A stretch of DNA of 43,706 nt from IMG/VR virus record IMGVR_UViG_3300001282_000003. The stretch is one strand, 5' to 3'. Under the pieces are notes generated by a model, which did no database searches, had not been told where the DNA came from, and saw only the letters and a program-made list of their open reading frames with translations. This DNA comes from an uncultured virus (IMG/VR IMGVR_UViG_3300001282_000003) (taxonomy: Duplodnaviria > Heunggongvirae > Uroviricota > Caudoviricetes). Position numbers and translations under genes: made by a program. Positions 2-43,277 of the stretch are shown one piece after another; the stretch's first letter is position 1; the number at the start of each line of letters is the position of its first letter.

Positions 2-481
2 TACTTTAATCAAATATGGAAACCACTTCCAAATAACTTAGATGTTATACATCGCATAAATAAATTCAATAAGATTTATGCTAAACAATTATTCAAGTTA
101 GAACCATTGAAGTTCGAGGTAAGAGTATTCTCACCAAAGTGGAAAATAGCTGGAATGATTGACTCTTTATTTTTATATAGAGGTAAGATTTACATTCTTG
201 ACTGGAAAACTAATAAAGATTTTACAGATGATAATCATCCTAAAGGAATCTATGAGAAATTACTTGCTCCTTTTCAAGACCATTTCAAAAATCATCTTAA
301 TGAATACTCAATACAACTTTCACTTTACTCACTTATCTTAGAAGAGTGGGGCTTTCAAGTAGGTGGTGCTTACATTGTTCACATTGGACCAGGAGATGAA
401 GATGCTGAATTATATAAAGTAGTTGATATGAGAGACAATCTAAAATTATTCTTAAATGGATCTATACAAGAGTCTAATTAA
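2..481 (+). CDS. PD-(D/E)XK exonuclease (Cas4/RecB-like), 5'-truncated by the window edge
   Basis: Frame is open from base 2. Motifs E..VFS...IAGMIDSLF...IYILDWKT and QLSLY are typical of phage PD-(D/E)XK nucleases. Confidence 0.8.
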   Translation, partial: YFNQIWKPLPNNLDVIHRINKFNKIYAKQLFKLEPLKFEVRVFSPKWKIAGMIDSLFLYRGKIYILDWKTNKDFTDDNHPKGIYEKLLAPFQDHFKNHLNEYSIQLSLYSLILEEWGFQVGGAYIVHIGPGDEDAELYKVVDMRDNLKLFLNGSIQESN

Positions 482-761
482 TGACGATGAATTCTTAGAT
501 TACTTCTGTGATGTCTTAGAGGATAACATTTCCGAAAAAGCAAAATATAAAGTTAGTATTGGTTTTAAGAAACATGACATGTCTATATTCTTTTTTATAG
601 ATGGTTCATCTATATTACAGGTTATGCCTGATAAGGATTTACAATACACATATGCTAATGTTCCTTCTTATGAAGATGAAATACAACATTCGATTAATAT
701 TATTGAGAAACAATATAAACGAGATAAAACGATAGAAGATATCATAAAAAAAGAGAGTTAA
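456..761 (+). CDS. hypothetical protein with shared C-terminal tag
   Basis: 101 aa, overlaps the upstream stop, ends YKRDKTIEDIIKKES. Confidence 0.7.
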   Translation: MDLYKSLINDDEFLDYFCDVLEDNISEKAKYKVSIGFKKHDMSIFFFIDGSSILQVMPDKDLQYTYANVPSYEDEIQHSINIIEKQYKRDKTIEDIIKKES

Positions 762-779
762 ATATTTAACTCTCTTTTT
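748..779. terminator. bidirectional intrinsic terminator
   Basis: Perfect 32-bp palindrome AAAAAGAGAGTTAAAT/ATTTAACTCTCTTTTT between convergent genes. Confidence 0.85.
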
Positions 780-799
780 GTTTATAGATATTTTACAGA

Positions 800-1288
800 T
801 TAGATTTGTGGACCTACAGCTTCACCTGAAACAGTTTCAACTTCAGTGTAGTACACACCTTTTTCTTTAATAACTTCTAAGATTTGCTCAGTAGCATCGA
901 TGTTATCTGTATTAAAAATAACTTCCATTTTACCCATAACCAAATTGATTGAATTAGCAGTAGCCCATTCTTCAACAATAACTGCTAGTTGTTCAAAAAC
1001 ATTTGTATTTAATTCATCAGACATTTCTTTAAGTTTTCTTTTAAAGTCTTGGTCTAATTTCATTAATTTGTCTTGGATTTGTCTAAATGCTTCCATATCT
1101 CTTTTTTGAGATGCTTCATCCAGTACTAAATCTGATTGAGATCTTTTAATGATAGTTTCCATTTCCTTTTTATCAGGATCTATACTTTCTAACATTTTTC
1201 TTTTTTCAGATTCGATTTGTTTGTAACCTTCAACATATGGTTGAAAGTTTCTTGTTAAAACTTCAAAGTCTATTACTCTTAATTCCAT
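800..1288 (-). CDS. OmpH/Skp-family chaperone-like protein without signal peptide
   Basis: N-terminal RVIDFEVL..NFQPY, long coiled coil, C-terminal IVEEWATANSINLVM...VIF..DNIDATEQILEVI matches the Skp/OmpH layout. Confidence 0.7.
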   Translation of the reverse strand: MELRVIDFEVLTRNFQPYVEGYKQIESEKRKMLESIDPDKKEMETIIKRSQSDLVLDEASQKRDMEAFRQIQDKLMKLDQDFKRKLKEMSDELNTNVFEQLAVIVEEWATANSINLVMGKMEVIFNTDNIDATEQILEVIKEKGVYYTEVETVSGEAVGPQI

Positions 1289-1305
1289 TTAAAATATTTT
1301 TTCTT

Positions 1306-1334
1306 ATTATAGATTAAATAGGTAAAAATGTTTA
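1306..1334 (-). promoter_or_regulatory. putative phage promoter TAAAC-N18-TATAAT
   Basis: Same bipartite motif with exact 18-nt spacer also lies upstream of ORFs 3541, 20551(-) and 30444. Confidence 0.6.
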
Positions 1335-1342
1335 ATGATTAT

Positions 1343-1894
1343 TTAAGAAAGAAGATAGTCAATAGCCACTTTATATCTATTAACTAGATTAGTTTCCTCT
1401 GATGCTTGAGGATTTTCAATATTTACTATTACACTTGATGTTGCTCCAAGCTTAGTAACTTCTAAATAAGTAACTCTTGTACCAATCAATTTAGCGTATT
1501 GTTTATTTTGTAAATAATATTTAGCGTCTTCTGAGAGTTGATCCATTTCTAGAATCTTACCAAGATTCTGATTATTATTATCTCTGAAAATATTAAATCC
1601 CATTTGATAAACACCCTTTGTATCTAAAGCTTTTTTAATTTTTTTAGAAACGGGTGTGTTTGTTTGAAATAATATCTCTTCCCAAGTTTTATTTTTAACA
1701 TCTGCTATACTAGAATAATCTTTTATGTCAATTTGATAACTATAAAATAAAGTTAATTCAAGGTAATTATAATCACCTTTAGAGATTAAATCATCTATTA
1801 TTTTATGATACTCATAGATTTGTTCTCTACCTTTTGTAGCTAACTTATCTATTTGATTAAATATCTTTTGAATTTTCTTTTTATCTGGACTCAT
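1343..1894 (-). CDS. hypothetical protein (late class)
   Basis: 183 aa ORF; AATATATA box (1899-1906) 4 nt upstream of ATG. Confidence 0.75.
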   Translation of the reverse strand: MSPDKKKIQKIFNQIDKLATKGREQIYEYHKIIDDLISKGDYNYLELTLFYSYQIDIKDYSSIADVKNKTWEEILFQTNTPVSKKIKKALDTKGVYQMGFNIFRDNNNQNLGKILEMDQLSEDAKYYLQNKQYAKLIGTRVTYLEVTKLGATSSVIVNIENPQASEETNLVNRYKVAIDYLLS

Positions 1895-1904
1895 AATTTA
1901 TATA

Positions 1905-3438: not shown

Positions 3439-3491
3439 AATATACAATTTATTTCTATGATTTATATATTATTTTTTCATTTTCATTTTAT

Positions 3492-3520
3492 TAAACCAAA
3501 TACCTAAATTTTCATATAAA
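3492..3520 (+). promoter_or_regulatory. putative phage promoter TAAAC-N18-TATAAA
   Basis: TAAAC caaatacctaaattttca TATAAA at the head of the metabolic operon. Confidence 0.6.
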
Positions 3521-3540
3521 CTTCAAATAATTAAATTATA

Positions 3541-4017: not shown

Positions 4018-4018
4018 A

Positions 4019-5041: not shown

Positions 5042-5044
5042 AAT

Positions 5045-5890: not shown

Positions 5891-5891
5891 T

Positions 5892-5923
5892 TTTGGCTAA
5901 AATAAAAATTGTTTGTATATTTG
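5892..5923 (+). promoter_or_regulatory. Bacteroidetes primary-sigma-type promoter
   Basis: TTTG (5892-5895), 20 nt, TATATTTG (5916-5923), then 4 nt to ATG at 5928. Confidence 0.75.
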
Positions 5924-5927
5924 TAAC

Positions 5928-6290
5928 ATGAACATTTCCAACCACGAGAAGAAAAGACGACAACATGAGAAAGAGTTGAAGTCTTTTAGAAATAAAATGG
6001 GTAAACATATTGTTTGGTTTGATTCTTTATCAAAGACCAAGCAATATGATTTGCTATTTGGTTGGAAAAGAGAGAAGAATTCTAACAAGTTACAAGCACC
6101 GGAAGAGAAAACAATCCTGAGACCTGCTTATGTTGGTTATAGAAGAAAGATGGTAAAACAAAAAATTACTTCTTATCCATCATCACTTAAACACTTTATA
6201 GTTAAGTGTAGAGTGAATCCTCAATTTCAACCACATAGAACAAGAGTTAGGGATGCGGCTATTGATATACTTTTAAATAGTAAAAAATAA
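5928..6290 (+). CDS. basic hypothetical protein with shared C-terminal tag
   Basis: ATG at 5928 directly after the promoter; ends VRDAAIDILLNSKK. Confidence 0.7.
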   Translation: MNISNHEKKRRQHEKELKSFRNKMGKHIVWFDSLSKTKQYDLLFGWKREKNSNKLQAPEEKTILRPAYVGYRRKMVKQKITSYPSSLKHFIVKCRVNPQFQPHRTRVRDAAIDILLNSKK

Positions 6291-6305: not shown

Positions 6306-7268
6306 ATGAAAATTTTCAGCGGATCATCAAGTCAAGAATTAACAAACCAGATTTGTCAAATTCTAAACAAAGAACAACAACGTTTCTCTTCAATGGGTAT
6401 TGTTGAACAAGAAATTATCCCAGGTAAATTAAAAATTGATAAATTCTCAGATGGTGAAATTCTACCATTATTTCAAGAATCTGTCAGAGACGAAGATGTC
6501 TTCCTTGTACAAACAACAAACAGTTCAGATAACATAATGGAAACATTATTAGTTATTGATGCTGCTAAAAGAGCTGGTTGTAAATCATTTACATTAGTTG
6601 CTCCTTTTCAAGCTTACTCTCGTCAAGATAAAACAGACCATCTTCGTTCTTCAATTGGCTCTAAAGTATTAGCCGATATTTTAACCACGGCTGGTATGAC
6701 ACGAGTAATGACTATTGACTTACACGCTTCTGCTATTCAAGGTTTTTATAATGTGCCTGTTATTCACTTGAATGGTAACAAAATCTTTATTGATTACATC
6801 AAAGAACATCAAATTGAAGACCTAACAATTGTTGCTCCCGACCAAGGTGCTGTTAAAAGAGCTTCTGACTTCTGTAAAGCTTTCCCAGATGCTTCATTCG
6901 CAATGATTAATAAGAAAAGAATTAAACCAAATGAGATTCATTCAATGGAACTTGTTGGTGATGTCACTGGTCGTAATGTTATCATTGTTGATGATATGGC
7001 TGATACCTTAGGAACTATGTGTAAAGCCGCTGAACTTCTTATGGAGAAAGGTGCGAAGTCTGTTAGAGCGATTGCTACTCACGGTATTCTAAGTGGTAAG
7101 GCTTATACAAACTTAGAGTCTTCAGTTTTAACTGAGTTATTAGTATCTGATTCTATTCCAGCAAAATTGTCACCTAAGTTGAAAGTTATTTCTTGTGATA
7201 ACATTATTGCTAGGTCTATCTGGGGTTTAGTTAACAAGAAAAGTATCCACGAATTAAACTCAATCTAA
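6306..7268 (+). CDS. prs: ribose-phosphate pyrophosphokinase
   Basis: FSDGEI, YSRQDK, DLHA..IQGF, VAPDQGAVKRA, IIVDDMADTLGT, ATHGILSG. Confidence 0.95.
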   Translation: MKIFSGSSSQELTNQICQILNKEQQRFSSMGIVEQEIIPGKLKIDKFSDGEILPLFQESVRDEDVFLVQTTNSSDNIMETLLVIDAAKRAGCKSFTLVAPFQAYSRQDKTDHLRSSIGSKVLADILTTAGMTRVMTIDLHASAIQGFYNVPVIHLNGNKIFIDYIKEHQIEDLTIVAPDQGAVKRASDFCKAFPDASFAMINKKRIKPNEIHSMELVGDVTGRNVIIVDDMADTLGTMCKAAELLMEKGAKSVRAIATHGILSGKAYTNLESSVLTELLVSDSIPAKLSPKLKVISCDNIIARSIWGLVNKKSIHELNSI

Positions 7269-7597
7269 TGTTAGACGATACAGATAATTATATAAAAGAT
7301 AATCTTCAAAATATCATTGATGGTAAGTTTGATGATAAGTTTTCAAAAGAACAATTAAAGATGATGTTAGAAATGTCATTTTTATATAATCATATTAGTG
7401 TTGAAAATGATTCAGTTATATTTGAGTATGATAGTCAGGAATTAAAAATCTCAGGTATTAATGACCTTGTACATTCAATACCAACCGGTATAGATTATAA
7501 AAATCAAATATTTTCAACGATTAAAAGTGATGTAGTTTTCAAATCGGCTCTTACTCAATTTTTGAGAGATAAAAAAATTAATGAAATATTAGAATGA
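7268..7597 (+). CDS. hypothetical protein with shared C-terminal tag
   Basis: TAATG overlap with prs; ends FLRDKKINEILE. Confidence 0.7.
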   Translation: MLDDTDNYIKDNLQNIIDGKFDDKFSKEQLKMMLEMSFLYNHISVENDSVIFEYDSQELKISGINDLVHSIPTGIDYKNQIFSTIKSDVVFKSALTQFLRDKKINEILE

Positions 7598-9249: not shown

Positions 9250-10142
9250 CAAATATATTAGACGGTAAATTAGTATCTAATCACATACTCACAGGAGTTA
9301 AAGAAAAGATAGATAAACACGTTGATGAATCTAAAGAAAGATTAGGATATACAATTGCTAAACCAAGTATGGCTATTGTTCTTGTTGGTAATAATCCTGC
9401 TTCTGAATCTTATGTCAAAGGTAAATTAAAAGCCTGTGAGAAAGCCGGTATCAATCATCATTTAATTAGATTTGACGAATCTATATCTGCGTTTGATTTA
9501 TTAACAGAAGTTAAGAATCTAAACAAATCTTCTTATGATGGTTTTATAGTTCAACTTCCTTTACCTGCTCATATTAAACCTGATCCTATTATCAATGAGA
9601 TCAGTGCTTACAAAGATATTGATGGGTTTCATCCACTTAACTTTGGTAAGATGGCTTTAGGTCAAAAGGCTATGAGACCAGCAACTGCTTATGGTATTCT
9701 AAAGTTGTTAGAGTATTATCAAATTGAAACAAAAGGCAAACATGTAGTTGTGATTGGTCGTTCAAATATTGTCGGTAAACCTATTTCTATTATGCTAGGT
9801 AATGACTTTAACATCGGACGAGCTACTGTTACCTCATGTGATATTAACACTCCCAAATCGCTCCTAAATGAAGAATGTCAAAAAGCAGATATCGTTATTG
9901 TTGCTGTTGGTAAACCTTGTTTAGTAACTGCTGATATGATTAAAGAAGGCGCGGTTGTTATTGATGTGGGTATTAATAAATTAGATACTGGTAAGTTAGT
10001 TGGTGACTGTGACTTTGGTGCTATTGCTGAGAAAGCAAGTTGGGTTACTCCTGTACCAGGTGGTGTTGGACCAATGACTATATCTGGTTTGATTCTAAAT
10101 ACTTATGAGGCTTGGAAGATGAAAAACTTTATTCAGGAATGA
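9231..10142 (+). CDS. folD: methylenetetrahydrofolate dehydrogenase/cyclohydrolase
   Basis: ILDGK, VGNNPASESYV..K, VQLPLP, KDIDGFHP, GRSNIVGKP, IDVGIN, TPVPGGVGPMT. Confidence 0.95.
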   Translation: METTSLANILDGKLVSNHILTGVKEKIDKHVDESKERLGYTIAKPSMAIVLVGNNPASESYVKGKLKACEKAGINHHLIRFDESISAFDLLTEVKNLNKSSYDGFIVQLPLPAHIKPDPIINEISAYKDIDGFHPLNFGKMALGQKAMRPATAYGILKLLEYYQIETKGKHVVVIGRSNIVGKPISIMLGNDFNIGRATVTSCDINTPKSLLNEECQKADIVIVAVGKPCLVTADMIKEGAVVIDVGINKLDTGKLVGDCDFGAIAEKASWVTPVPGGVGPMTISGLILNTYEAWKMKNFIQE

Positions 10143-10399
10143 AAGTAAAGTGTTTGAATATCAGTAAATACAATCAATATGATAGACTACCTCTAACAGT
10201 AGGTAAAGTATATGATGTGATAGAGGTTACACATATTCCTTTCAATTCCAGGAGGTATGATGATTATACAGGACCTTTCTATAAACTAGTTAATGATAAT
10301 GGTGAATTATCAGGTTACACAGATGAATGTGTTAGAGTTCTTACTTTAGATGAAAAGAGAGAATTAAAAATTGAAGATTTACTTAATGGAGTTCTATAA
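10139..10399 (+). CDS. small beta-barrel-like hypothetical protein with shared C-terminal tag
   Basis: ATGA overlap with the folD stop; KVKC..LTVGKVYDV..YKLVNDNG; ends KRELKIEDLLN. Confidence 0.7.
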   Translation: MKVKCLNISKYNQYDRLPLTVGKVYDVIEVTHIPFNSRRYDDYTGPFYKLVNDNGELSGYTDECVRVLTLDEKRELKIEDLLNGVL

Positions 10400-10679
10400 C
10401 TTATTTAAGATAGTATTTTCAATTGTAATTTACATTATACTATCACCAGTCATTATTCCTATTTTATTAATCAATGAAGTAAGATGGAATAAAGGTGTTT
10501 GTAGAAAGTGTAACTCTGATAGATATTATTTAGATTTCAGACCAGATAAGTTTATTAATCATCACTATGTTTGTAAGAAGTGTGGATATAGATTCTTATC
10601 ATCAAGACATAGAATTCAACCAAGTGATAACCAATTAAAAACTCTTATAAGAGGTAATAAGATAAATAAAATATTATAA
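10386..10679 (+). CDS. membrane-anchored Zn-ribbon protein with shared C-terminal tag
   Basis: Hydrophobic N-terminal helix, CRKC...CKKC, ends IRGNKINKIL. Confidence 0.65.
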   Translation: MEFYNLFKIVFSIVIYIILSPVIIPILLINEVRWNKGVCRKCNSDRYYLDFRPDKFINHHYVCKKCGYRFLSSRHRIQPSDNQLKTLIRGNKINKIL

Positions 10680-10680
10680 A

Positions 10681-10968
10681 ATGATTTATCCATCAAGAAT
10701 AAAAGGTCAGGAATATCCTCTTAGTAAGGGGGATATTGTTGTTTGTATAACTGAGAGTTTTCAAGAGTTCACTTATGGTAAGCAATATCAACTTTATTGT
10801 GATTTCGATTTAAACGTTTCGGTGACACACCGTTATTCAACTCTTCCAATTAACTCTGACTTAGGAAATCAACCTTTACCTGCTTATTACTCACCAACTG
10901 GTTATTACTTTCTACCTCTTCATATTTGGAGAGAATTGAAAATAAACAAAGTATTGGAAAATGAATAG
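10681..10968 (+). CDS. small hypothetical protein with shared C-terminal tag
   Basis: KGDIVVC...FTYGKQYQL...NSDLG; ends WRELKINKVLE. Confidence 0.7.
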   Translation: MIYPSRIKGQEYPLSKGDIVVCITESFQEFTYGKQYQLYCDFDLNVSVTHRYSTLPINSDLGNQPLPAYYSPTGYYFLPLHIWRELKINKVLENE

Positions 10969-11215
10969 AATATTGAAAATTGGAGACAGAGTTAGGAATG
11001 TAAGAGTAGGTGTTTATAAAGATGAACCTATTGTTATAGTTGGTGAATCTGACAATAACAATTCACTTAAAATTAAATTTAACAGATATCATATTAAATA
11101 TCTAAATGTTTTTACTGTTAGTGGTGATAATATGATGTCTTGGGTAGATGAAAGTGATATAGTTTTAGATATAGAATATTATAGAAACGAAAAATTAAAT
11201 AAGATATTAGAATGA
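10961..11215 (+). CDS. small hypothetical protein with shared C-terminal tag
   Basis: LKIGDRVR (SH3/KOW-like start); ends YRNEKLNKILE. Confidence 0.7.
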   Translation: MNRILKIGDRVRNVRVGVYKDEPIVIVGESDNNNSLKIKFNRYHIKYLNVFTVSGDNMMSWVDESDIVLDIEYYRNEKLNKILE

Positions 11216-12091: not shown

Positions 12092-12436
12092 ATGACAAAA
12101 ATATATTTAGCAATTCCGTATTCAAGATACGAAGAAAAAAGTTTTAAGTTAGCCAATGAAATTGCGGCTCAATTAATTAATATGGGCCACGTTGTGTTCT
12201 CACCAATCAGTATGTCACATCCAATTGCGGTTCACGGTAATCTAAAAGGTGACTGGGAAACTTGGAAAAGAATTGATTTTGAATTCATTAAATGGTGCGA
12301 TGAGGTAGTAGTTGTAAACTTTGATGAAGAAGCTGTTGCTAACTCAACAGGTGTTCAAGGTGAATTAGAATTTGCTACAGAACTTGGTAAAAATATCAGA
12401 TATTACTATGACAAGTCACGAGTGGAGAATAACTGA
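12092..12436 (+). CDS. DUF1937 / nucleoside 2-deoxyribosyltransferase-like protein
   Basis: KIYLAIPYS, VFSPISMSHP, D..FIKWCD, STGVQGELEFA..LGK. Confidence 0.7.
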   Translation: MTKIYLAIPYSRYEEKSFKLANEIAAQLINMGHVVFSPISMSHPIAVHGNLKGDWETWKRIDFEFIKWCDEVVVVNFDEEAVANSTGVQGELEFATELGKNIRYYYDKSRVENN

Positions 12437-12437
12437 T

Positions 12438-12695
12438 ATGATTGAAAAGGGATTAGTCAGCTATGTCAAAGGTGAAAAGGTTGTACTATTCCGTAGAAAA
12501 TCAAATGGTTATCCAAAAGGAATTAAAGACGGTGTTGAATATACTATAAGAGGAATCTATGGTGAAGGTATTGAAGTTGCCTTAAATTCTTCTAATGGTA
12601 TTGGTTTGTTACAATCAATAAAAGTACACAGAAGTTATATGATTCCAAAATATGCTCTACGAGATATCAATCTTAAAAAACTTCTTAATAGTTAA
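12438..12695 (+). CDS. small hypothetical protein with shared C-terminal tag
   Basis: ATG 1 nt after the upstream stop (alternative ATG at 12408); KGEKVV; ends LRDINLKKLLNS. Confidence 0.65.
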   Translation: MIEKGLVSYVKGEKVVLFRRKSNGYPKGIKDGVEYTIRGIYGEGIEVALNSSNGIGLLQSIKVHRSYMIPKYALRDINLKKLLNS

Positions 12696-16781: not shown

Positions 16782-16845
16782 TTGATTTTATTACGTTTTG
16801 TCTATTATATATTAAATAATTTATTTAGTTTTTCGATTTTTGAAA

Positions 16846-19168: not shown

Positions 19169-19289
19169 TTTTTTGAATTTATTTTATTTATATATTAAAT
19201 TAGACCTACTACTTATCATATTTTTAGACAAAATTAAAATTGGTAGTTTTTATAATAAATATATACCTTATAAAATATAGAAAATAGAA

Positions 19290-24130: not shown

Positions 24131-24148
24131 TTTAATATATATATTAAA
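24131..24148. promoter_or_regulatory. bidirectional putative late promoter
   Basis: 18-bp palindrome TTTAATATATATATTAAA places AATATATA on both strands between divergent genes. Confidence 0.65.
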
Positions 24149-37750: not shown

Positions 37751-37764
37751 ATTATTAAGCTCCT

Positions 37765-37792: not shown

Positions 37793-37795
37793 ATT

Positions 37796-38185
37796 TTAAA
37801 TAAGTTTATCTAAAGAATTTCTTCTACGATATTTTTGTTTAGACTTTTCTACTTCATCTTCAATCATGTTGTTACCATATCCCATGTAGTTTCCATAATA
37901 AAGAAGTGTTGCGTCTCCTAAATTCTCTTTAATACAATCATCACAGATAGCAATAATAAATTGGTCACCATCGTGTGTTGATCCATAACCGGCATCAATG
38001 ATATGAATAATACCATTATCAATCATTTCATTATTAACATTAACTAAACTACCATCTGGTCTTTTAGAATCTTTCCAAAGAATATCTTCTTCGTGTTGAG
38101 GTGGTGAATCTTCGGTTGAGATTTTAGAACTAACAGGTGGTGTGTTAGGAATTACATTATTTTTCTTACAACAAATACAATACAT
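37796..38185 (-). CDS. Zn-binding hypothetical protein with shared C-terminal tag
   Basis: CICC...GYGSTHDG...ICDDC; ends RRRNSLDKLI. Confidence 0.75.
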   Translation of the reverse strand: MYCICCKKNNVIPNTPPVSSKISTEDSPPQHEEDILWKDSKRPDGSLVNVNNEMIDNGIIHIIDAGYGSTHDGDQFIIAICDDCIKENLGDATLLYYGNYMGYGNNMIEDEVEKSKQKYRRRNSLDKLI

Positions 38186-38331
38186 TATAAATTAAATATT
38201 TTTTTAATTTTCATTTTTCTTATGAGTGCCTTTCTAATATTAACTCCAATATTATATGCTAATTGAGTTCTTGGATATAAACTAGCAAAGTCTAAATTTA
38301 CTATAATCGGTGAAGTCTCTATAGGTTCCAT
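38185..38331 (-). CDS. 48-aa mini-protein: DNA polymerase B motif A peptide plus C-terminal tag
   Basis: MEPIETSPIIVNLDFASLYPRTQLAYNIGVNIRKALIRKMKIKKIFNL*; TAATG coupling to the next gene. Confidence 0.75.
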   Translation of the reverse strand: MEPIETSPIIVNLDFASLYPRTQLAYNIGVNIRKALIRKMKIKKIFNL

Positions 38332-38444
38332 ATTCTTTTAATTTTTTCTTTTCTTTTTTCTTTTCTTTCCAATCTTTTAGCAAGTTGTAGTATTAAAGTA
38401 GTTTGATAACTCATAGACTCACCACCTTTTATCATTGAATTCAT
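38319..38444 (-). CDS. 41-aa mini-protein: RecA/UvsX-like peptide plus C-terminal tag
   Basis: MNSMIKGGESMSYQTTLILQLAKRLERKEKRKEKIKRIWNL*; ATGA coupling to the upstream gene. Confidence 0.65.
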   Translation of the reverse strand: MNSMIKGGESMSYQTTLILQLAKRLERKEKRKEKIKRIWNL

Positions 38445-39046
38445 TTCTCAGCTACTTTTCTAAAGTCTGTTAAAATTTCATTTCTAAGTTCTCTGAATTC
38501 AGTATCTAATTCTTCCCAAGTCCATCTTTTACTTTTAATTTTATTCCAGATAAAGTTGGCACAAGAGAAGTCAGTAATTCTACCAGAGGTTGCCACTTGA
38601 GTAGCAAACATAGGAATTCTTAAAGAGTGAAATAAAGATTTAACTCCAATGTAATAATCATCTTGTTCTAACTTTTTCTTCGACTTCACCCAACTATTAG
38701 AACTAATATGTGATGTAGCGTGTCTCAGTTTAGCCAGGTTCAACTTTAAATCGTATTTGATAGTCTCTTTCAACTTAGCCCAATCAGGTGCCCAAATACA
38801 CTCTAAATTGTTTATACGATGCCATTCTAAGTCAGCCTTAAACTTATCTGGAGTATAAACGTGAATGTTATATAAACCATTCTTAATTTCAATTACCTCA
38901 ACAGAGTTATTAGCAACCATAATGATATCCCAATCTGAGTCAGAGTTGGAAGTGGAATAAATTTGACTACCAAAAATATAAACATTGAACACACGACTTG
39001 TGTGTATTCCAGATGCTTTAATTATTGTTTCTAATGTTGGTATCAT
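38441..39046 (-). CDS. Pol-beta-superfamily nucleotidyltransferase
   Basis: VYIFGSQIY...SDSDWDIIMV (GS..DxD), helical C-terminus with KSLFHSLRI. Confidence 0.85.
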   Translation of the reverse strand: MIPTLETIIKASGIHTSRVFNVYIFGSQIYSTSNSDSDWDIIMVANNSVEVIEIKNGLYNIHVYTPDKFKADLEWHRINNLECIWAPDWAKLKETIKYDLKLNLAKLRHATSHISSNSWVKSKKKLEQDDYYIGVKSLFHSLRIPMFATQVATSGRITDFSCANFIWNKIKSKRWTWEELDTEFRELRNEILTDFRKVAEK

Positions 39047-39264
39047 ATTCCTAACTCTTTTAATTTCTCTTTTCTAATTTTATCTAAACTGATTAAGTTT
39101 GATTCATGAACTCCAATTTTAGAACCTAAATCATTTATCAATTCAATGTAAACACCGTCAGAAGAGTAAACCACTAGACCATTCCAATCTCCTTCATATA
39201 CTTTATTTTCAGTCATGTCAGATCTTTTATGCCAATCACTTCTTGGTTTATATACCCATTTCAT
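39043..39264 (-). CDS. small hypothetical protein with shared C-terminal tag
   Basis: MTENKVYE..IELINDLG; ends IRKEKLKELGI. Confidence 0.7.
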   Translation of the reverse strand: MKWVYKPRSDWHKRSDMTENKVYEGDWNGLVVYSSDGVYIELINDLGSKIGVHESNLISLDKIRKEKLKELGI

Positions 39265-39527
39265 ATTCCTAATTGTTCTAAAGTGTTATCTAATTTCAAT
39301 TCTTTATTCCATTCTTCTAAATCTTTCAAAGAATACTCACGACTAATCCATTTACCACCATATCCACTACTATCATACACTGCCTTTTCGGTACTATACC
39401 ACACAACGGCTTTAGCTCTATCATATTCAACATACAATCCATTAAACGGTGTTTCTACACTGATGAGTAAACCTCTACCATCTTTTGTATTTACTTCTTG
39501 AAATATTCTTAAAAAACTTGGTTTCAT
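39261..39527 (-). CDS. hypothetical protein, paralogue of the ORF at 43610
   Basis: MKPSFLRIFQEVNTKDGRG; ends LDNTLEQLGI. Confidence 0.8.
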   Translation of the reverse strand: MKPSFLRIFQEVNTKDGRGLLISVETPFNGLYVEYDRAKAVVWYSTEKAVYDSSGYGGKWISREYSLKDLEEWNKELKLDNTLEQLGI

Positions 39528-40063
39528 ATTCCTATCTTACTTAATATCTTACTTCTAATGTTTGCCTTTGTGTCCCAATAATCTTTCGTATCAAGATAAT
39601 ATAAATTCATACTACCTTTTGTTTGTGAGTTAAATGTTGGTTCTATAAATCTTATCTTCCAATCACCATCATCTTCATCTACATTTAGAATAACTAACTC
39701 TGTTCCTTTCGGAACTTTCCACCAGTTTGGTTTCTGACTTTGGTCAGAAGTGTTAATGAACTTCCTAAACTGACCATCATAGTAAAAGTCTTTCTTAACA
39801 ATAACAATCTCACCAGCCTCAGGAACATCATACTTACTTCTATCAAACTTAACTTTATCATTCATTATATTCATTCTAAAGATAACAAATAAACAAACAA
39901 TAGTTATTGCTGATATACTCACGAAAAGACCTGTAACGCCACCAAAATGTAAAGGTAGTGTAAATAAAAGAACAGATAACAACAATAAACTAAGTTTAAT
40001 CATTTCATTATTATCTAACCAACGATTGAATCTATAAAAACTATTTTTTAACATACTAACCAT
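39524..40063 (-). CDS. membrane protein (2 TM plus beta domain) with shared C-terminal tag
   Basis: Two hydrophobic helices; ends IRSKILSKIGI. Confidence 0.75.
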   Translation of the reverse strand: MVSMLKNSFYRFNRWLDNNEMIKLSLLLLSVLLFTLPLHFGGVTGLFVSISAITIVCLFVIFRMNIMNDKVKFDRSKYDVPEAGEIVIVKKDFYYDGQFRKFINTSDQSQKPNWWKVPKGTELVILNVDEDDGDWKIRFIEPTFNSQTKGSMNLYYLDTKDYWDTKANIRSKILSKIGI

Positions 40064-40389
40064 ACACTTTCTTTTGGTGTTTTATCTAAAACTTCATTAA
40101 TTTTAATTTCTCTTTTGTAAGCAATCATCTTACTTAAAGTTTCTCTCAAGAAACTTAAAGTCTTTTGCTTTCTCATATCACTTCTATAGTGAGTGTGTTC
40201 AATTTCATCAATATGATAATTCATCATTACAATATCCACCGTCATGTCTTGGTAATAGTTATTAGAATGCCTCCAATAAATAATCTCACCATCTTTTAAG
40301 ATGATATAATCTTTCTTCTCATTGAAAGGACATTGAAGTTCTTCAATGATATGATAATATTCTCCGTTACTATTTACTACAAATCTCAT
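40048..40389 (-). CDS. hypothetical protein, paralogue of 42930..43277
   Basis: MRFVVNSNGEYYHIIEEL...KREIKINEVL. Confidence 0.85.
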   Translation of the reverse strand: MRFVVNSNGEYYHIIEELQCPFNEKKDYIILKDGEIIYWRHSNNYYQDMTVDIVMMNYHIDEIEHTHYRSDMRKQKTLSFLRETLSKMIAYKREIKINEVLDKTPKESVWLVC

Positions 40390-41333
40390 GAGCCAAACAA
40401 ACTATTTAATAAATCATCACGATGAAAAGCCATATCCTCAAAATGTGAATAAGGGAAATAATTACTACGATTTAATTCATCAGTAATGTAAACCTGTAAA
40501 TATCCGTTTGAGTTCAAACTACTACTTCTAACCTCATATGATTTGTTAGCAACTAAAGCAATTTTATTACCATAAGGAACATCTTTCAAACACTTTAACA
40601 TAGTTCCGTTAGGAACATTCATTGAGCTTTTAATTTTATTTGAAATAGATGAAATAATATACTCTGAATTTAATTTACGAAAGTCAATTTTAGTTTCTTC
40701 CATAATCTCTACAAAACTACCTAATAGTTTCCTAGTAATATCAATCTCACGCTTAGGAACACTATCAAAGTTTAATTCTTGAACCGTATACCACCTAATA
40801 CTATTAAATAGTTGTGATTGGTTAACAAATTTCTCATAGAAATATTGTTTTGAATCATCATAAACCTCAACATTGTTTTGAATAATGTAATTCAAAAGAG
40901 GAATAATACAAGATTTCAAACCATCAATACTTTCACCACCTCTGCGACCGTAACTCATACGACCTCTTCTTGTTAAAGCGGGTTTAGAAACCCAACGACC
41001 ATTTAATAAACGATCGAATTGAGGACCATCCATTAGAATCTCATTGAATTGTCTTTGGGTTCTATTCATAAAAAACTTTTTCAATCTAACATTTTGAGTA
41101 GACTCAGCAATCAATGCCTTCGATTTTCGCCAAGTCATTCCTTCTATAACAGGATTAAATTTATCATTATATTTCATGAAATCCCAAAACTCAGCAAAGT
41201 ATTGAAGTCCAATATTTCTCATAACATTGGAATTAACCTCACCTCTCTCATATTCGGAGATAATTGGAAACAATTCTTTAGCTTCTGCGTAAGTTGCTAA
41301 GTTTTTTTTAATTAGATCGTAGTTTAACTTCAT
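40386..41333 (-). CDS. hypothetical protein with C-terminal small beta domain and shared tag
   Basis: 315 aa; LKCLKD..LVANKSYEV..ITDELN; ends HRDDLLNSLFGS. Confidence 0.8.
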   Translation of the reverse strand: MKLNYDLIKKNLATYAEAKELFPIISEYERGEVNSNVMRNIGLQYFAEFWDFMKYNDKFNPVIEGMTWRKSKALIAESTQNVRLKKFFMNRTQRQFNEILMDGPQFDRLLNGRWVSKPALTRRGRMSYGRRGGESIDGLKSCIIPLLNYIIQNNVEVYDDSKQYFYEKFVNQSQLFNSIRWYTVQELNFDSVPKREIDITRKLLGSFVEIMEETKIDFRKLNSEYIISSISNKIKSSMNVPNGTMLKCLKDVPYGNKIALVANKSYEVRSSSLNSNGYLQVYITDELNRSNYFPYSHFEDMAFHRDDLLNSLFGS

Positions 41334-41638
41334 ATTTTATTTAAGAGTTTAGTGATACTTTCTTTCATATCAGATAATTCAGGAACACCGGCTCCAATAT
41401 AAACAATAGCAATGTTTTTCTTAGGAGCAATTAACCCTCTGACAGATTCCTTCATATATCTTTTGATTTTGTTTCTATCAACAGCTCTTTTGAACTTCTT
41501 AGATGAAACAGCGAATAAGAATTTTGTAGAATCAGAGTCTAAGAATTTAATCAAAACAAATCCATCTGAAAGGTACTTGCCCTTTTCAAATAGATTGTCG
41601 ATCTCAGACTTTCCTCTCATTATAAAATCTTTTTTCAT
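41330..41638 (-). CDS. rnpA: ribonuclease P protein component homologue (copy 1)
   Basis: KSEIDNLFEKGK...FAVSSKKFKRAVDRNKIKRYMKES (RNR motif reads RNK). Confidence 0.85.
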   Translation of the reverse strand: MKKDFIMRGKSEIDNLFEKGKYLSDGFVLIKFLDSDSTKFLFAVSSKKFKRAVDRNKIKRYMKESVRGLIAPKKNIAIVYIGAGVPELSDMKESITKLLNKI

Positions 41639-41643
41639 AAGTA

Positions 41644-41674
41644 CAAAGATAATAAATAAATTCTAATAAACAAA
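41644..41674 (-). promoter_or_regulatory. Bacteroidetes primary-sigma-type promoter
   Basis: Minus strand TTTG, 19 nt, TATCTTTG, then 5 nt to the rnpA ATG. Confidence 0.75.
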
Positions 41675-41702
41675 AAAACCCACCAATTACTTGGTGGGTT
41701 TT
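41672..41702 (-). terminator. intrinsic terminator of clpP
   Basis: Minus strand AAAACCCACCAA-gtaa-TTGGTGGGTTTTTTT. Confidence 0.9.
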
Positions 41703-41719
41703 AACTCTTACGAAAATAA

Positions 41720-42526
41720 TTACTTCTTTGGAGTTCTCTTAGTAGGAGTTACTTTAGTAGTTATACTTGGAGTAGTCTTACTTGATAACTCAGGCATATG
41801 TAAGATTTCCTTTTGATAGTAATCTTCAAAACCATCCATCAAAGTTGTAATTGAAGATGTTTTATCACTAATGATAATTTCATCAATAAATCCAAAGTCT
41901 AATGCTTCTTGTGAATTCAACCACTTGTCTCTACGAGCACTTTCTAAAACTTCATCAAATGATCTACCAGAGTTCTCAGCCAACATCTTAAACAAGATGT
42001 AGTTGTACTTTTCAGACTCCATTTGTGAGATACGATTATCTTGAACGTGTCCTTGAGCACCTGAACTAACTTGGTGAATCATTACTTTAGAAAAGTTCAA
42101 TGAAGAACGTTTTCCTTTTGTTCCAGAAGAAAGTAAGATAGAACCCATCGATGCAGCCATACCAGTATTGATTGTTGCAACATCAGAGTTAATGTATCTC
42201 ATAACGTCAACCATTGATAACCCAGACTTAACTGAACCACCTGGTGAGTCAACGTGCATAATGATATCTCTTTTCTCAACGTTATCTAAATACATCAACT
42301 GTGCTTGAACAACTGTTGACATATTGTCATTAACTACACCAGCTACCCAAAGTATTCTATCTCTCATTAAACGTGAGAAGATATCCATTTGAGTTACCCT
42401 CATTTCTCTTTCTTCAAGAATGTATGGTGTCATACTGTTCTCTAAGTTTTGGTTAAAGTAATGTAAGTTCATTGAGGAGATACCTTCACTTAGTGCATAC
42501 TTTTTAAAATCTTTTCCGTAATCCAT
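41720..42526 (-). CDS. clpP: ATP-dependent Clp protease proteolytic subunit
   Basis: TPYILEER...MDIFSRLMRDRI, DSPGGSV, GMAASMG (Ser), MIHQ (His), RDKWL (Asp); Bacteroidetes-like MDYGKDFKKYA N-terminus. Confidence 0.95.
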   Translation of the reverse strand: MDYGKDFKKYALSEGISSMNLHYFNQNLENSMTPYILEEREMRVTQMDIFSRLMRDRILWVAGVVNDNMSTVVQAQLMYLDNVEKRDIIMHVDSPGGSVKSGLSMVDVMRYINSDVATINTGMAASMGSILLSSGTKGKRSSLNFSKVMIHQVSSGAQGHVQDNRISQMESEKYNYILFKMLAENSGRSFDEVLESARRDKWLNSQEALDFGFIDEIIISDKTSSITTLMDGFEDYYQKEILHMPELSSKTTPSITTKVTPTKRTPKK

Positions 42527-42588
42527 TTTTTGTTTTTAGTTTATTAATTCTATAATTTATGATATAATCATTTTATAAAAAAGTTTGA

Positions 42589-42620
42589 TTTGTTTTTTCT
42601 TTATTTTATTCTTATATTTG
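42589..42620 (+). promoter_or_regulatory. Bacteroidetes primary-sigma-type promoter
   Basis: TTTG, 20 nt, TATATTTG, then 7 nt to the rnpA ATG. Confidence 0.75.
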
Positions 42621-42627
42621 TTGCATT

Positions 42628-42933
42628 ATGAAAAAAGAGTTAATGTTAAAGAACAAGTCAGAAATCGACAAACTATTTAAGACAGGTAAATCTGTGTCTA
42701 GTGGTGTTGTATTGGCTAAGGTTATAAACTCTTCTTCTGGATTTGTTTTCGCAGTATCATCTAAGAAATTTAAAAGAGCTGTTGATAGAAACAGAATCAA
42801 AAGATTAATGAGAGAAGTTGTTAGATTGAATATGATTAAAGATAAGTCTGTTGCTTTTGTTTTCATTGGAGATTCAGTTCCAACTTATTTAGAAATTGAA
42901 AAATCTATTAAAGGAATAATTGAAAGAATATGA
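42628..42933 (+). CDS. rnpA: ribonuclease P protein component homologue (copy 2)
   Basis: LKNKSEIDKLFKTGKSV...FAVSSKKFKRAVDRNRIKRLMREV (intact RNR motif). Confidence 0.9.
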   Translation: MKKELMLKNKSEIDKLFKTGKSVSSGVVLAKVINSSSGFVFAVSSKKFKRAVDRNRIKRLMREVVRLNMIKDKSVAFVFIGDSVPTYLEIEKSIKGIIERI

Positions 42934-43277
42934 GATTTGTAGTAAATAATAAAGGAGAATATTATCATATCATTGAAGAACTTGTTTGTCCTTTCAATGA
43001 AAAGAAAGATTACATAATCTTAAAAGATGGTGAGATTATTTATTGGCAGAATGCTAATGACTATTATCATGATATGAAGTTAGACATTGAAATAACTAAA
43101 GAACATATTAGTAAAATTGAATTGACTAAGTATAGAAGTGAAACAAGAAAGCAAAAGACTTTAGGTTTCTTGAAAGAGACTTTAAGTAAGATGATTGCTT
43201 ACAAAAGAGAAATTAAAATTGAAGAAGTGTTAAATAAAATAACACCAGAAGATGAATACAAATATTGGGTATGTTAA
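42930..43277 (+). CDS. hypothetical protein, paralogue of 40048..40389
   Basis: MRFVVNNKGEYYHIIEEL...KREIKIEEVL. Confidence 0.85.
   Translation: MRFVVNNKGEYYHIIEELVCPFNEKKDYIILKDGEIIYWQNANDYYHDMKLDIEITKEHISKIELTKYRSETRKQKTLGFLKETLSKMIAYKREIKIEEVLNKITPEDEYKYWVC

What the first reader, a model, noticed from the sequence alone, without database searches (positions are those of the whole stretch)
456..43277. About 17 unrelated small proteins share one C-terminal helical tag (R-x-x-x-[IL]-x-x-[ILV]-[ILFWG])
Seen at or near the C-terminus: 456 KRDKTIEDII; 5928 VRDAAIDILL; 7268 LRDKKINEIL; 10139 KRELKIEDLL; 10386 IRGNKINKIL; 10681 WRELKINKVL; 10961 YRNEKLNKIL; 12438 LRDINLKKLL; 37796 RRRNSLDKLI; 38185 IRKMKIKKIF; 38319 KRKEKIKRIW; 39043 IRKEKLKELG; 39524 IRSKILSKIG; 40048 KREIKINEVL; 40386 HRDDLLNSLF; 42930 KREIKIEEVL; 39261 KLDNTLEQLG (variant). 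It also occurs once N-terminally (8608 MRDINLDILM). The protein bodies differ (Zn ribbons, TM proteins, small beta barrels, enzyme peptides). The codons are divergent, so the conserved unit is the peptide rather than a DNA repeat. The tag is absent from the recognisable enzymes and from the AATATATA-class late genes. Inference: a modular address label that docks a library of early effectors onto one partner, such as a phage or host scaffold, a protease/adaptor (a phage ClpP is encoded amid them) or an oligomeric hub. I know of no description of such a system.
Basis: partly seen in the sequence, partly recalled or inferred. Interest (0 to 1): 0.9.

Follow-up and report, generated by a model that had tools for sequence, protein, structure and literature searches.

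The report
Shared end-tag on megaphage small proteins
About a quarter of the genes in this piece of a giant uncultured phage encode small, mostly unrelated proteins that all end in the same short helix; the label is real and conserved, but what reads it is still unknown.

Summary
In the window, 17 of 69 genes carry R-x3-[IL]-x2-[ILV]-[ILFWG] in their last 25 residues. Shuffles give 0.5-0.7.

The window belongs to a 630-640 kb relative of the Lak megaphages. In the complete relative LR745206.1, 174 of 975 ORF-genes are tagged against 8 expected. The motif ends 0-5 residues before the stop, most often 1.

Conservation is at the peptide level. Arginine is not replaceable by lysine, 149 against 8. 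With the tag removed the bodies are almost never related. Only 7 of 174 tagged proteins have a Pfam match.

Tagged genes avoid the AATATATA late-promoter class, 3/164 against 175/811.

Best reading is a portable recognition helix on early proteins, read by one shared partner. The leading but unproven candidate is the phage's own Clp protease. The relative encodes a ClpC-like unfoldase without N-domain, ClpS and two ClpP.

Clamp, capsid-cargo and membrane-anchor readings each failed a test.

This scan found the same tag earlier on other megaphage fragments. My three paper searches returned no description.

The parts
456..761 (+). tagged small gene (101 aa); tag codons 720-746, 4 residues after the motif
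   Evidence: no Pfam or PHROG match
5913..6290 (+). tagged gene (125 aa, or shorter from ATG 5928); tag 6249-6275
   Evidence: ortholog in LR745206.1 keeps the tag
7268..7597 (+). tagged gene (109 aa); tag 7565-7591, 1 residue after, ATGA overlap with the next gene
10112..10399 (+). tagged gene (95 aa, or from ATG 10139); tag 10358-10384; first of four tagged genes in a row
   Evidence: weak phrog_28187 match
10371..10679 (+). tagged gene (102 aa): hydrophobic N-terminal segment, CxxC...CxxC, then the tag at 10650-10676 directly before the stop
   Evidence: (weak zinc-ribbon hits)
10681..10968 (+). tagged gene (95 aa); tag 10930-10956
   Evidence: ortholog keeps the pattern
10961..11215 (+). 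tagged gene (84 aa); tag 11183-11209
12372..12695 (+). tagged gene (relatives start at 12408, 95 aa); N-helix, SH3/KOW-like barrel, then tag helix; tag 12660-12686
   Evidence: 27 homologs; Arg and last Leu of the tag invariant in 18 sequences; AF2 pLDDT 80, helix 81-94; fold matches mostly end at residues 81-83
37796..38185 (-). tagged gene (129 aa, Cys pairs at both ends); tag 37799-37825 directly before the stop
   Evidence: 696 homologs; Arg triplet, Leu and Asp of the tag invariant in 25 sequences; fold failed
38185..38331 (-). 48-aa mini-gene: family-B DNA polymerase motif-A fragment followed by the tag (38194-38220)
   Evidence: weak DNA_pol_B and phrog_262 matches; a 79-aa tagged counterpart exists in LR745206.1
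38319..38444 (-). 41-aa mini-gene that is little more than the tag (38328-38354)
   Evidence: its tail is similar to that of 38185-38331
39043..39264 (-). tagged gene (73 aa), Gly variant ending in Ile; tag 39049-39075
   Evidence: weak alignment to the last strands plus tag of the 12372 family
39261..39527 (-). 88-aa gene with a degenerate tag (Leu in place of Arg) at 39267-39293
39524..40063 (-). tagged gene (179 aa) with hydrophobic N-terminal segments; tag 39530-39556
   Evidence: ortholog keeps the tag
40048..40389 (-). 113-aa gene, paralog of 42930-43277; motif 40087-40113 followed by 12 more residues
   Evidence: 74% identity between the paralogs
40386..41333 (-). largest tagged gene in the window (315 aa); tag 40395-40421
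   Evidence: ortholog in LR756502.1 keeps the tag
42930..43277 (+). 115-aa paralog; motif 43206-43232 followed by 14 residues
23478..24110 (-). 210-aa gene that fits the regex 19 residues from its end; probably not a true tag (it lies behind an AATATATA site)
   Evidence: Pfam CLP_protease E 1.7e-53; also matches PHROG head-maturation-protease families

Best explanation
The tag is a portable two-to-three-turn C-terminal helix. Its pattern is a hydrophobic residue, Arg, [Asp/Asn/Glu], x, Lys, [Ile/Leu], x, x, [Ile/Leu], Leu, then usually 1-2 residues and the stop. It has been placed on a large, fast-turning-over set of small early proteins of this megaphage clade.

One face of the helix carries the invariant Arg, the Lys and three hydrophobic residues. 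I infer that this face is read in trans by a single shared partner, most likely a catalytic one that can handle some 170 different clients. My leading candidate is the phage's own Clp machine: a ClpC-like unfoldase without N-domain, two ClpP, and ClpS. The tag would act either as a degron that clears early proteins or as a tether by which small binder proteins deliver their targets.

Shown here:
- The tag is real.
- It acts at the peptide level.
- It is bound to the C-terminus.
- It is specific to this clade.
- It is modular.
- It is excluded from late genes.

Inferred: that it is read in trans by one partner. Speculative: that the partner is Clp.
For: Enrichment. 17/69, 11/61 and 10/53 genes are tagged against under 1 expected. 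In a complete genome the count is 174/975 against 8.1. By a position matrix, 183/975 exceed the 99th percentile of the null.

Position. The motif ends 0-5 residues from the stop in 149 cases, with the peak at 1 residue (63 cases). Internal hits are at chance level.

Peptide-level selection. Synonymous and conservative codon changes occur at the conserved positions.

Specific recognition. Position 1 is Arg 149 times and Lys 8 times. In internal occurrences of the same hydrophobic triad it is Arg 80 and Lys 125.

Modularity.
- Tag-stripped bodies give 2 related tagged pairs among 174.
- A domain of an untagged 560-aa protein recurs in a tagged 243-aa protein, and likewise for a 319/235-aa pair.
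- Tagged proteins include membrane-segment plus Cys-pair proteins, an SH3/KOW-like barrel, 41-48-aa peptides, a polymerase motif-A fragment and a gp23 capsid fragment.

Conservation. Tagged window proteins that have homologs keep the pattern: 9 of 10 best hits by regex, and the tenth ends in Val. Arg and the last Leu are invariant in 18 sequences, and Arg, Leu and Asp in 25.

Temporal class. AATATATA lies within 80 nt upstream of 3/164 tagged genes against 175/811 untagged. In the window it precedes the baseplate wedge gene and its neighbours. Units holding a tagged gene have TAnnTTTG upstream in 27/92 cases against 44/339.

Candidate reader. A ClpP lies in the window. LR745206.1 holds a 701-aa two-ring Clp ATPase with a VGF loop and no N-domain, and it is 83-100% conserved among the 120 best-scoring relatives listed. 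LR745206.1 also holds ClpS and two ClpP.
Against: No binding of any kind was tested or predicted.

The Clp link is circumstantial. Lak-A1 also encodes a Clp-type ATPase and ClpP yet shows 1 tag-profile hit, against 52 and 38 in the two tagged genomes. Clp presence therefore does not track this tag.

In the one good model the helix follows the last strand without a linker and has pLDDT 69-83. That would also fit a helix packed on its own body.

Within ortholog pairs the tag is only slightly better conserved than the body, at 0.53 against 0.41 identity.

Tagged genes abut or overlap a downstream same-strand gene more often than size-matched untagged genes, 55% against 37% (58% for all tagged genes). 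That leaves room for a translational role.
Confidence: 0.5

Rival explanations
1. The tagged proteins are one very large, fast-diverging early-gene family, or a few such families. The 'tag' is the only recognisable remnant of the family: the closing helix of a common small fold. It is not a module moved between unrelated proteins.
For: - Tagged genes stand in tandem runs. The window has 4 in a row at 10112-11215 and 8 in a row at 37796-41333. In LR745206.1 runs reach 7.
- Their sizes are similar, with a median of 110 aa.
- One body is an SH3/KOW-like barrel ending in the helix without a linker.
- hhalign joins the last strands plus tag of 39043-39264 to that family over 42 columns, at E 0.0033 but probability 9.8%.
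Against: - Only 2 tagged-tagged pairs among 174 stripped bodies at E<1e-3.
- hhalign probabilities are 0.2-9.8% for 4 window proteins.
- The tag also ends a membrane-segment plus zinc-ribbon-like protein, a Cys-pair 129-aa protein, 41- and 48-aa peptides, and fragments of polymerase and capsid genes.
- The same domain occurs with and without the tag.
- A fold-closing helix would not need an Arg that Lys cannot replace across different bodies.
Confidence: 0.2
2. The conserved C-terminal peptide acts while still in the ribosome. As a nascent chain 1-2 residues from the stop codon, it modulates termination and helps re-initiation on the overlapping next gene. This would serve a host that makes little use of Shine-Dalgarno pairing.
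For: - The distance to the stop codon is tight, peaking at 1 residue.
- Tagged genes are followed by a same-strand gene within 5 nt in 58% of cases against 37% for untagged genes of 60-170 aa. The ATGA overlap accounts for 33/127 against 33/272.
- Mini-ORFs of 41-48 aa that are little more than the tag exist.
Against: - 22% of tagged genes have no same-strand gene downstream, and about a quarter of the rest have gaps over 5 nt.
- One family keeps the motif 12-14 residues from the stop.
- The tag is nearly absent from Lak-A1.
- The denser packing may simply reflect early operon structure.
Confidence: 0.08
3. The tag is a sliding-clamp-binding tail like those of T4 gp43, gp55 and gp33. It brings many small DNA-acting proteins to the phage clamp.
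For: - It is a short hydrophobic C-terminal peptide shared by unrelated proteins, as in T4 (passages of PMC2988020).
- The phage has T4-like parts: a gp23 fragment match, family-B polymerase, and a short A/T-rich motif 10-34 nt upstream of late gene starts.
- Many tagged bodies look like small nucleic-acid-binding folds.
Against: - In T4 the polymerase tail and the gp55/gp33 tails are highly similar and interchangeable. Here the tail of the polymerase C-terminal piece scores -3.5 on the tag matrix, rank 103 of 826 untagged proteins.
- The tag follows the body without the flexible linker described for gp55.
- 18% of all genes is far more than a clamp's client list.
- Membrane-segment proteins carry the tag.
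Confidence: 0.06
4. The tag loads cargo into the capsid, as the T4 capsid-targeting sequence or encapsulin cargo-loading peptides do. The small proteins would then be injected with the DNA.
For: - A shared terminal peptide on unrelated proteins is how T4 and encapsulins load cargo (recalled, not from a call).
- The window's ClpP-family protein also matches PHROG head-maturation-protease families.
- Earlier notes favour this for other megaphage tags.
Against: - Tagged genes avoid the AATATATA class that drives the structural genes: 3/164 against 175/811, and 10/92 units against 111/339.
- No conserved cleavage motif lies next to the tag.
- 11 of 164 tagged proteins have membrane-like segments.
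Confidence: 0.06
5. The tag is a generic amphipathic membrane-targeting helix like the C-terminal ends of MinD or FtsA.
For: It is a short C-terminal helix with a hydrophobic face flanked by Arg and Lys. The MinD/FtsA comparison is recalled, not from a call.
Against: - Lys almost never replaces Arg, 8 against 149.
- Acidic residues are frequent at positions 2, 6 and 7.
- Only three to four hydrophobic residues are present.
- The tag also occurs on proteins that already have membrane segments.
Confidence: 0.04

Closest known systems
C-terminal degrons and adaptor tethers of AAA+ proteases (ssrA tag, other ClpX/ClpA C-terminal classes, the ClpX-binding tail of SspB): recalled knowledge, not from a call
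   Same: A short peptide at the very C-terminus on unrelated proteins, read by one catalytic machine. This phage clade encodes such a machine: a ClpC-like ATPase, ClpS and ClpP.
   Different: The sequence is unlike any degron I know. The tag is predicted helical, carries an invariant Arg 9-14 residues from the end, and tolerates 0-5 trailing residues. About 18% of all genes carry it. No degradation or binding has been shown. Clp genes are also present in Lak-A1, which lacks the tag.
Sliding-clamp-binding C-terminal epitope of T4 gp43, gp55 and gp33 (PMC2988020, passages read)
   Same: A short hydrophobic C-terminal peptide shared by unrelated proteins of one phage and interchangeable between them.
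   Different: In T4 there are three to a few clients, joined by a flexible linker, and the polymerase carries the same epitope. Here there are about 170 clients, there is no linker in the one model, and the polymerase tail is not tag-like.
Cargo-loading peptides: T4 capsid-targeting sequence, encapsulin C-terminal loading peptides, microcompartment encapsulation helices (recalled, not from a call)
   Same: A portable terminal peptide or amphipathic helix that addresses unrelated proteins to one protein shell.
   Different: Those cargos are made together with the shell. These genes avoid the late promoter class, and some have membrane segments.
Phage adaptor-like protein Gp53 of SPO1 acting on host ClpCP (bioRxiv 10.1101/569657; seen only as a search listing and the start of its abstract)
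   Same: A small early phage protein that redirects a ClpC-ClpP protease.
   Different: That is one protein acting on the host's ClpC. Here the case is a shared tail on many proteins, and the ClpC-like ATPase is the phage's own and lacks the N-domain.
Lineage-specific expansions of small proteins in giant phages (earlier notes e1-5388576 and e1-5709464)
   Same: Tandem arrays of small early genes that share only a C-terminal helix end.
   Different: Here the stripped bodies are almost never related, and the tag also ends gene fragments and proteins of other architectures.

Membership tests
T4-type sliding-clamp-binding epitope | The phage's replicative DNA polymerase ends in the same epitope as the other clients | tested here: not met
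   The polymerase C-terminal piece in LR745206.1 (474 aa) scores -3.5 on the tag matrix, rank 103 of 826 untagged proteins. Tagged proteins have a median score of 19.
T4-type sliding-clamp-binding epitope | The epitope is joined to the body by a divergent flexible linker (PMC2988020) | tested here: not met
   In the only confident model the last strand (residues 78-80) runs straight into the tag helix (81-94). This is one protein only.
T4-type sliding-clamp-binding epitope | A phage-encoded sliding clamp is present | tested here: inconclusive
   No match in LR745206.1 to PF02916, PF09116 or PF02768. A weak Rep_fac_C hit lay in a sugar-enzyme cluster. A divergent clamp could be missed.
Clp degron or adaptor tether | A Clp unfoldase and ClpP are available in the infected cell | tested here: met
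   ClpP in the window. In the relative: a 701-aa two-ring ATPase with a VGF loop, ClpS and two ClpP. Whether the window's own genome holds the ATPase could not be checked, because no whole genome is held.
Clp degron or adaptor tether | The signal sits at an accessible terminus of otherwise unrelated clients | tested here: met
   149 motifs end 0-5 residues from the stop. The bodies are unrelated.
   Lak-A1 has a Clp-type ATPase and ClpP but 1 tag-profile hit, against 52 and 38 in the tagged genomes. Its ATPase matches the family far more weakly (7e-16 against 6e-70). Only three genomes were compared.
Clp degron or adaptor tether | Tag-dependent binding or degradation | not testable with these tools
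This needs an experiment.
Capsid or shell cargo-loading peptide | Clients are expressed with the shell (late class) | tested here: not met
   AATATATA lies upstream of 3/164 tagged against 175/811 untagged genes. By transcription unit the figures are 10/92 against 111/339.
Capsid or shell cargo-loading peptide | Clients are found in the virion or shell | not testable with these tools
   No proteomics is available for this uncultured clade.
Membrane-targeting amphipathic helix (MinD/FtsA type) | Basic residues are interchangeable and recognition is by charge and hydrophobic moment | tested here: not met
   Arg 149 against Lys 8 at position 1. The background is Arg 80 against Lys 125.
Single expanded paralog family | The bodies are detectably homologous once the shared tail is removed | tested here: not met
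   2 tagged-tagged pairs among 174 bodies by phmmer at E<1e-3. hhalign probabilities are 0.2-9.8% for 4 window proteins against the A1 family. Very remote homology of a subset is not excluded.

The most novel reading that the evidence does not exclude
The tag is the docking handle of a phage-owned targeted-degradation system. Some 170 small, fast-evolving binder proteins would each grip a different host protein or early phage protein. Through the common Arg-Lys-hydrophobic helix they would tether it to the phage's N-domain-less ClpC-like/ClpP protease. This would be a bacterial-virus counterpart of the SspB tail, or of the poxvirus ankyrin/F-box adaptor families. Tagged fragments of the phage's own polymerase and capsid proteins would then act as baits for host sensors of those proteins.
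Probability: 0.1. Interest if true: 0.95.

Novelty: new variant of a known kind. Interest (0 to 1): 0.75.

Why it matters
Roughly one gene in five of these 630-640 kb phages is an orphan small protein, and this tag is the only thing such proteins have in common. It may therefore offer a single entry point to a large share of the unexplained coding capacity of megaphages.

A ten-residue peptide with one critical arginine is an easy experimental handle.

Either way it would add a new class of short linear motif. It would also give annotators a marker for the early gene class in these uncultured genomes.

Tried and rejected
1. DNA repeat or promoter inside the gene ends. Rejected because the codons vary synonymously and between Ile, Leu and Val codons.

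2. Alternative genetic code creating false C-termini. Table 11 and TAG=Q give equal coding in the window and in LR745206.1. Only Lak-A1 gains from TAG=Q.

3. Known family for the tag. A profile of 14 window tags found nothing meaningful in the PDB sequences (best E 0.084, a kinetochore peptide) or in Pfam.

4. Known family for the bodies. The 17 window proteins have no Pfam or PHROG match above threshold. Seven of 174 tagged relatives have a Pfam hit, and two of those are native ends that fit the regex by chance: ClpP's own C-terminus and a metallophosphatase. None of 21 larger tagged proteins has a PHROG match.

5. Second structure prediction, the 129-aa Cys-pair protein with 25 sequences. 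It failed at pLDDT 38, so I could not show by models that the folds differ.

6. Complex prediction of the ClpC-like ATPase with a tagged protein.

7. Looking for a clamp loader through Rep_fac_C. This led to a sugar-modification cluster.

8. The polymerase tail looked tag-like by eye but scores at the 90th percentile of the null only.

9. Proteasome/HslV-type partner. There is no Pfam match in the relative.

10. Co-occurrence of the tag with Clp genes across three genomes did not discriminate.

11. Foldseek against the PDB gave no match at E<=0.001 for the one good model. The VIA search gave only common small-barrel matches, with the best Z at 7.2.

Full report
WHAT THE WINDOW IS. The window is a 43.7-kb, 27-32% G+C fragment of an uncultured megaphage. 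Its best DNA matches are two 'uncultured phage' records of 634,780 and 642,428 bp. LR745206.1 matches at 79% identity over a folD segment, and LR756502.1 at 70%. The Prevotella Lak phages follow at 64-68%. No whole genome is held for the window.

The standard code fits. Reading TAG as Gln adds little coding in the window and nothing in LR745206.1, at 199,473 against 199,168 coding residues. Lak-A1 does gain from TAG=Q.

The window holds nucleotide and sugar enzymes: FolD, DHFR, PRPP synthetase, an epimerase, UDP-glucose dehydrogenase domains and glycosyltransferases. It also holds two RNase P protein paralogs and a ClpP. A block of structural genes includes a baseplate wedge protein, 17103-18824.

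THE OBSERVATION. The tag codons themselves are given under 'parts'.

With a greedy ORF set of 69 genes, 17 carry R-x3-[IL]-x2-[ILV]-[ILFWG] in the last 25 residues. Whole-protein shuffles give 0.51 (maximum 4 in 500). Shuffling only the last 25 residues gives 0.74. The 12,340 internal positions hold 2 hits against 4.6 expected. Among the 76 discarded overlapping ORFs there is 1 C-terminal hit. The first 25 residues hold none.

The 17th hit, 23478-24110, has 10 residues after the motif and sits behind an AATATATA site, so I regard it as chance. The 'variant' at 39261 has Leu for Arg. The N-terminal case at 8608 does not fit the pattern.

WHOLE-GENOME CENSUS. I fetched all of LR745206.1 and called 975 ORF-genes of 40 aa or more. 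Of these, 174 have the motif in the last 25 residues, and 149 have it 9-14 residues from the end. Shuffles give 8.1, maximum 16 in 100.

The number of residues after the motif is 0 in 13 cases, 1 in 63, 2 in 39, 3 in 13, 4 in 11 and 5 in 10.

The tag sits on small proteins:
- 27-33% of proteins of 60-130 aa
- 23% of those of 130-170 aa
- 11% of those of 170-250 aa
- 5 of 211 proteins above 250 aa

A position matrix built from the 149 finds 183 of 975 C-termini above the 99th percentile of a shuffled null.

A profile of 14 tags from the window alone was run over whole records in six frames. It finds 52 places in LR745206.1, 38 in LR756502.1 and 1 in Lak-A1. A 27-kb stretch of Lak-A1 has 0 tagged ORFs. 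The tag therefore belongs to this clade and not to the published Lak-A1.

PEPTIDE, NOT DNA. At the conserved positions the codons differ. Arg is AGA 13, CGA 2, AGG 1, CGT 1. The hydrophobic positions use ATT, ATA, TTA, CTT, GTT, GTA, GTG and TTG. Only the second-position T is constant, which is the signature of selection on hydrophobic side chains.

ANATOMY OF THE TAG. I took every C-terminal occurrence of the hydrophobic triad alone, 241 in LR745206.1. Position 1 is Arg in 149 and Lys in 8. In 1,628 internal occurrences it is Arg 80 and Lys 125. Position 2 is Asp, Asn or Glu in 59%. Position 4 is Lys in 46%. Position 9 is Gly in 16%, and 19 motifs in all are followed by a single terminal Ile.

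On a helical wheel (my inference) the preceding hydrophobic residue, Arg1, Lys4, and positions 5, 8 and 9 share one face. The acidic and polar residues lie on the other face.

ARE THE BODIES UNRELATED? In the window, BLAST finds only the paralog pair 40048/42930 (74% identity) and the untagged RnpA pair.

In LR745206.1, phmmer at E<1e-3 on tag-stripped bodies gives 2 tagged-tagged pairs among 174. It gives 17 tagged-untagged and 295 untagged-untagged edges. Some tagged proteins share a domain with longer untagged ones. Residues 344-530 of a 560-aa protein align to residues 49-197 of a tagged 243-aa protein. Residues 149-261 of a 319-aa protein align to residues 94-210 of a tagged 235-aa protein.

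Pfam names 7 of 174 tagged proteins. Two of these are native ends that happen to fit the regex, ClpP's own C-terminus and a metallophosphatase. One is a 67-aa gp23 capsid fragment. PHROGs names none of 21 larger tagged proteins.

In the window, 38185-38331 is a 48-aa family-B polymerase motif-A fragment plus the tag. It has a 79-aa tagged counterpart in the relative.

One body could be modelled. The 12408-12692 protein, with 18 sequences, gives pLDDT 80. It has an N-terminal helix, a small barrel, and a helix at residues 81-94. The barrel matches L21e, KOW, Tudor and SH3 domains at Z 5-7, and most matches stop at residues 81-83, before the tag helix.

Profile comparisons of that family with four other tagged window proteins give probabilities of 0.2-9.8%. 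The best joins the last two strands and the tag of 39043-39264. A subset may therefore be very old paralogs. The membrane-segment, Cys-pair, mini-peptide and gene-fragment cases cannot be.

The second model, of the 129-aa protein, failed at pLDDT 38.

CONSERVATION AND TURNOVER. Nine of the 17 window proteins have a homolog at E<1e-5 in LR745206.1 or in the 42-kb piece of LR756502.1. All of these keep the pattern; the one regex miss ends in Val. In nine ortholog pairs the nine tag positions are 53% identical and the rest 41%.

Within families the Arg and the last Leu, or Arg, Leu and Asp, are invariant. The 129-aa family has 696 members in the protein collection. Eight of 17 have no detectable homolog in the complete relative, which points to fast turnover.

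TEMPORAL CLASS. In the window, 12 of the 15 AATATATA sites lie 5-28 nt upstream of a called gene. These genes include the baseplate-wedge operon and the other structural-looking genes. None precedes a listed tagged gene.

In LR745206.1 the motif lies within 80 nt upstream of 3/164 tagged genes and 175/811 untagged genes, with preferred distances of 10-14 and 25-34 nt.

I grouped genes into 431 units. Of the units with a tagged gene, 10/92 have AATATATA upstream, against 111/339 of the others. They have TAnnTTTG upstream in 27/92 cases, against 44/339. TAnnTTTG is the Bacteroides -7 promoter element as I recall it. Tagged genes thus belong to the class that is not late, probably the host-polymerase-driven early class.

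TESTS OF SPECIFIC READINGS.
- Clamp. In T4 the tails of gp43, gp55 and gp33 are highly similar and interchangeable, and they hang on a flexible linker (passages of PMC2988020). Here the polymerase is split into two distant genes. The tail of its C-terminal piece scores -3.5 on the tag matrix, rank 103 of 826. No clamp family was found, which is inconclusive.
- Capsid cargo. This is contradicted by the promoter exclusivity and by membrane-like segments in 11/164 tagged proteins.
- Membrane anchor. This is contradicted by Arg 149 against Lys 8.
- Translational coupling. Tagged genes are followed within 5 nt by a same-strand gene in 58% of cases, against 37% for untagged genes of 60-170 aa (55% for tagged genes of that size). 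However, 22% have no such gene downstream, and one family keeps the motif 12-14 residues from the stop.

THE CLP LEAD. Besides the window's ClpP, LR745206.1 encodes a 701-aa two-ring Clp ATPase. Its Walker A motif begins near residue 89, so the usual N-domain is missing. It has a short UVR-like middle region and a Gly-Val-Gly-Phe loop of the kind that docks on ClpP. It is 83-100% conserved among the 120 best-scoring relatives listed, on contigs up to 634 kb, and none lists a Clp_N domain.

The same genome has ClpS and two ClpP. LR756502.1 has the ATPase and three ClpP-family matches. Similar N-domain-less ATPases occur in other giant phages.

This makes a phage-owned protease the most concrete candidate reader. 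But Lak-A1, which lacks the tag, also has a Clp-type ATPase, with a weaker match, and ClpP. No interaction could be predicted. The link is circumstantial.

LITERATURE AND EARLIER NOTES. Searches for 'Lak phage' with 'C-terminal' and 'motif', for 'megaphage' with 'ClpP', and for 'shared C-terminal' with 'small proteins' and 'early genes' returned no paper whose listed title or abstract start describes the tag; I did not open the two papers.

In the comparative review of jumbo phages (PMC7824862) I read only the passages around my search terms. It mentions ClpP and ClpS in jumbo phages and places Lak-B8 with T4-related group 2.2. The terms degron, C-terminal tail and C-terminal motif do not occur in it.

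VERDICT. The tag is a real, strongly conserved, clade-specific C-terminal recognition helix on about a fifth of the genes, confined to the genes that are not late. It is most likely read in trans by one partner, which I put at about 0.5. The phage's Clp machine is the best but unproven candidate. A fast-diverging-family origin for part of the set and a translational role remain open.

Noticed in passing
window 40048-41638 (-) and 42628-43277 (+), flanking ClpP 41720-42526: An inverted duplication. Each arm holds an RNase P protein (RnpA) homolog (102 and 101 aa, 51% identical) next to a 113/115-aa paralog (74% identical). A phage with two RnpA genes around a ClpP is unusual.
   Followed up: partly
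L020/L022 (LR745206.1 130568-131992, -) and L021 (232803-234344, +): The family-B DNA polymerase of the relative is split into two genes about 100 kb apart. The N-terminal piece ends, and the C-terminal piece begins, with sequence that looks like coiled coil, as if the halves zip together.
   Followed up: partly
window 38185-38331 (-); LR745206.1 83154-83393; L011:48158-48358: Mini-genes made of a fragment of a core phage protein plus the tag. The fragments are polymerase motif A and gp23 capsid residues 164-194 of the Pfam model. The full-length genes lie elsewhere.
   Followed up: partly
window, 15 sites; for example 16806-16813 (-), 19258-19265 (+), 24134-24145 (both strands): AATATATA lies 5-28 nt upstream of 12 called genes, mostly structural ones. 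At 24134-24145 two overlapping copies face divergent genes. In the relative the distances to the start codon cluster at 10-14 and 25-34 nt.
   Followed up: partly
L016:256-2361 (LR745206.1 423224-425329): A ClpC-like two-ring ATPase without the N-terminal domain but with an acidic 40-residue head and a VGF loop. Similar N-domain-less forms turn up in Rak2/GAP32-like and PA5oct-like giant phages.
   Followed up: partly
L024 (Prevotella phage Lak-A1 1-27322): Lak-A1 clearly reads TAG as sense: coding rises from 6,949 to 8,498 residues. The window and LR745206.1 do not. Related megaphages therefore differ in genetic code.
   Followed up: partly
window 800-1288 (-): An OmpH/Skp-like periplasmic chaperone homolog (Pfam E 2.9e-12) in a phage genome.
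   Followed up: no
window 8608-9249 (+): This 213-aa protein begins with a tag-like peptide at its N-terminus. The upstream methyltransferase gene ends in another frame with a one-base overlap. I could not tell whether this is chance or the trace of a rearrangement.
   Followed up: no
LR745206.1 123556-124221 (L018): The native C-terminus of ClpP itself fits the tag regex. This is probably coincidence, since that end is typical of ClpP proteins in general (my recollection).
   Followed up: no
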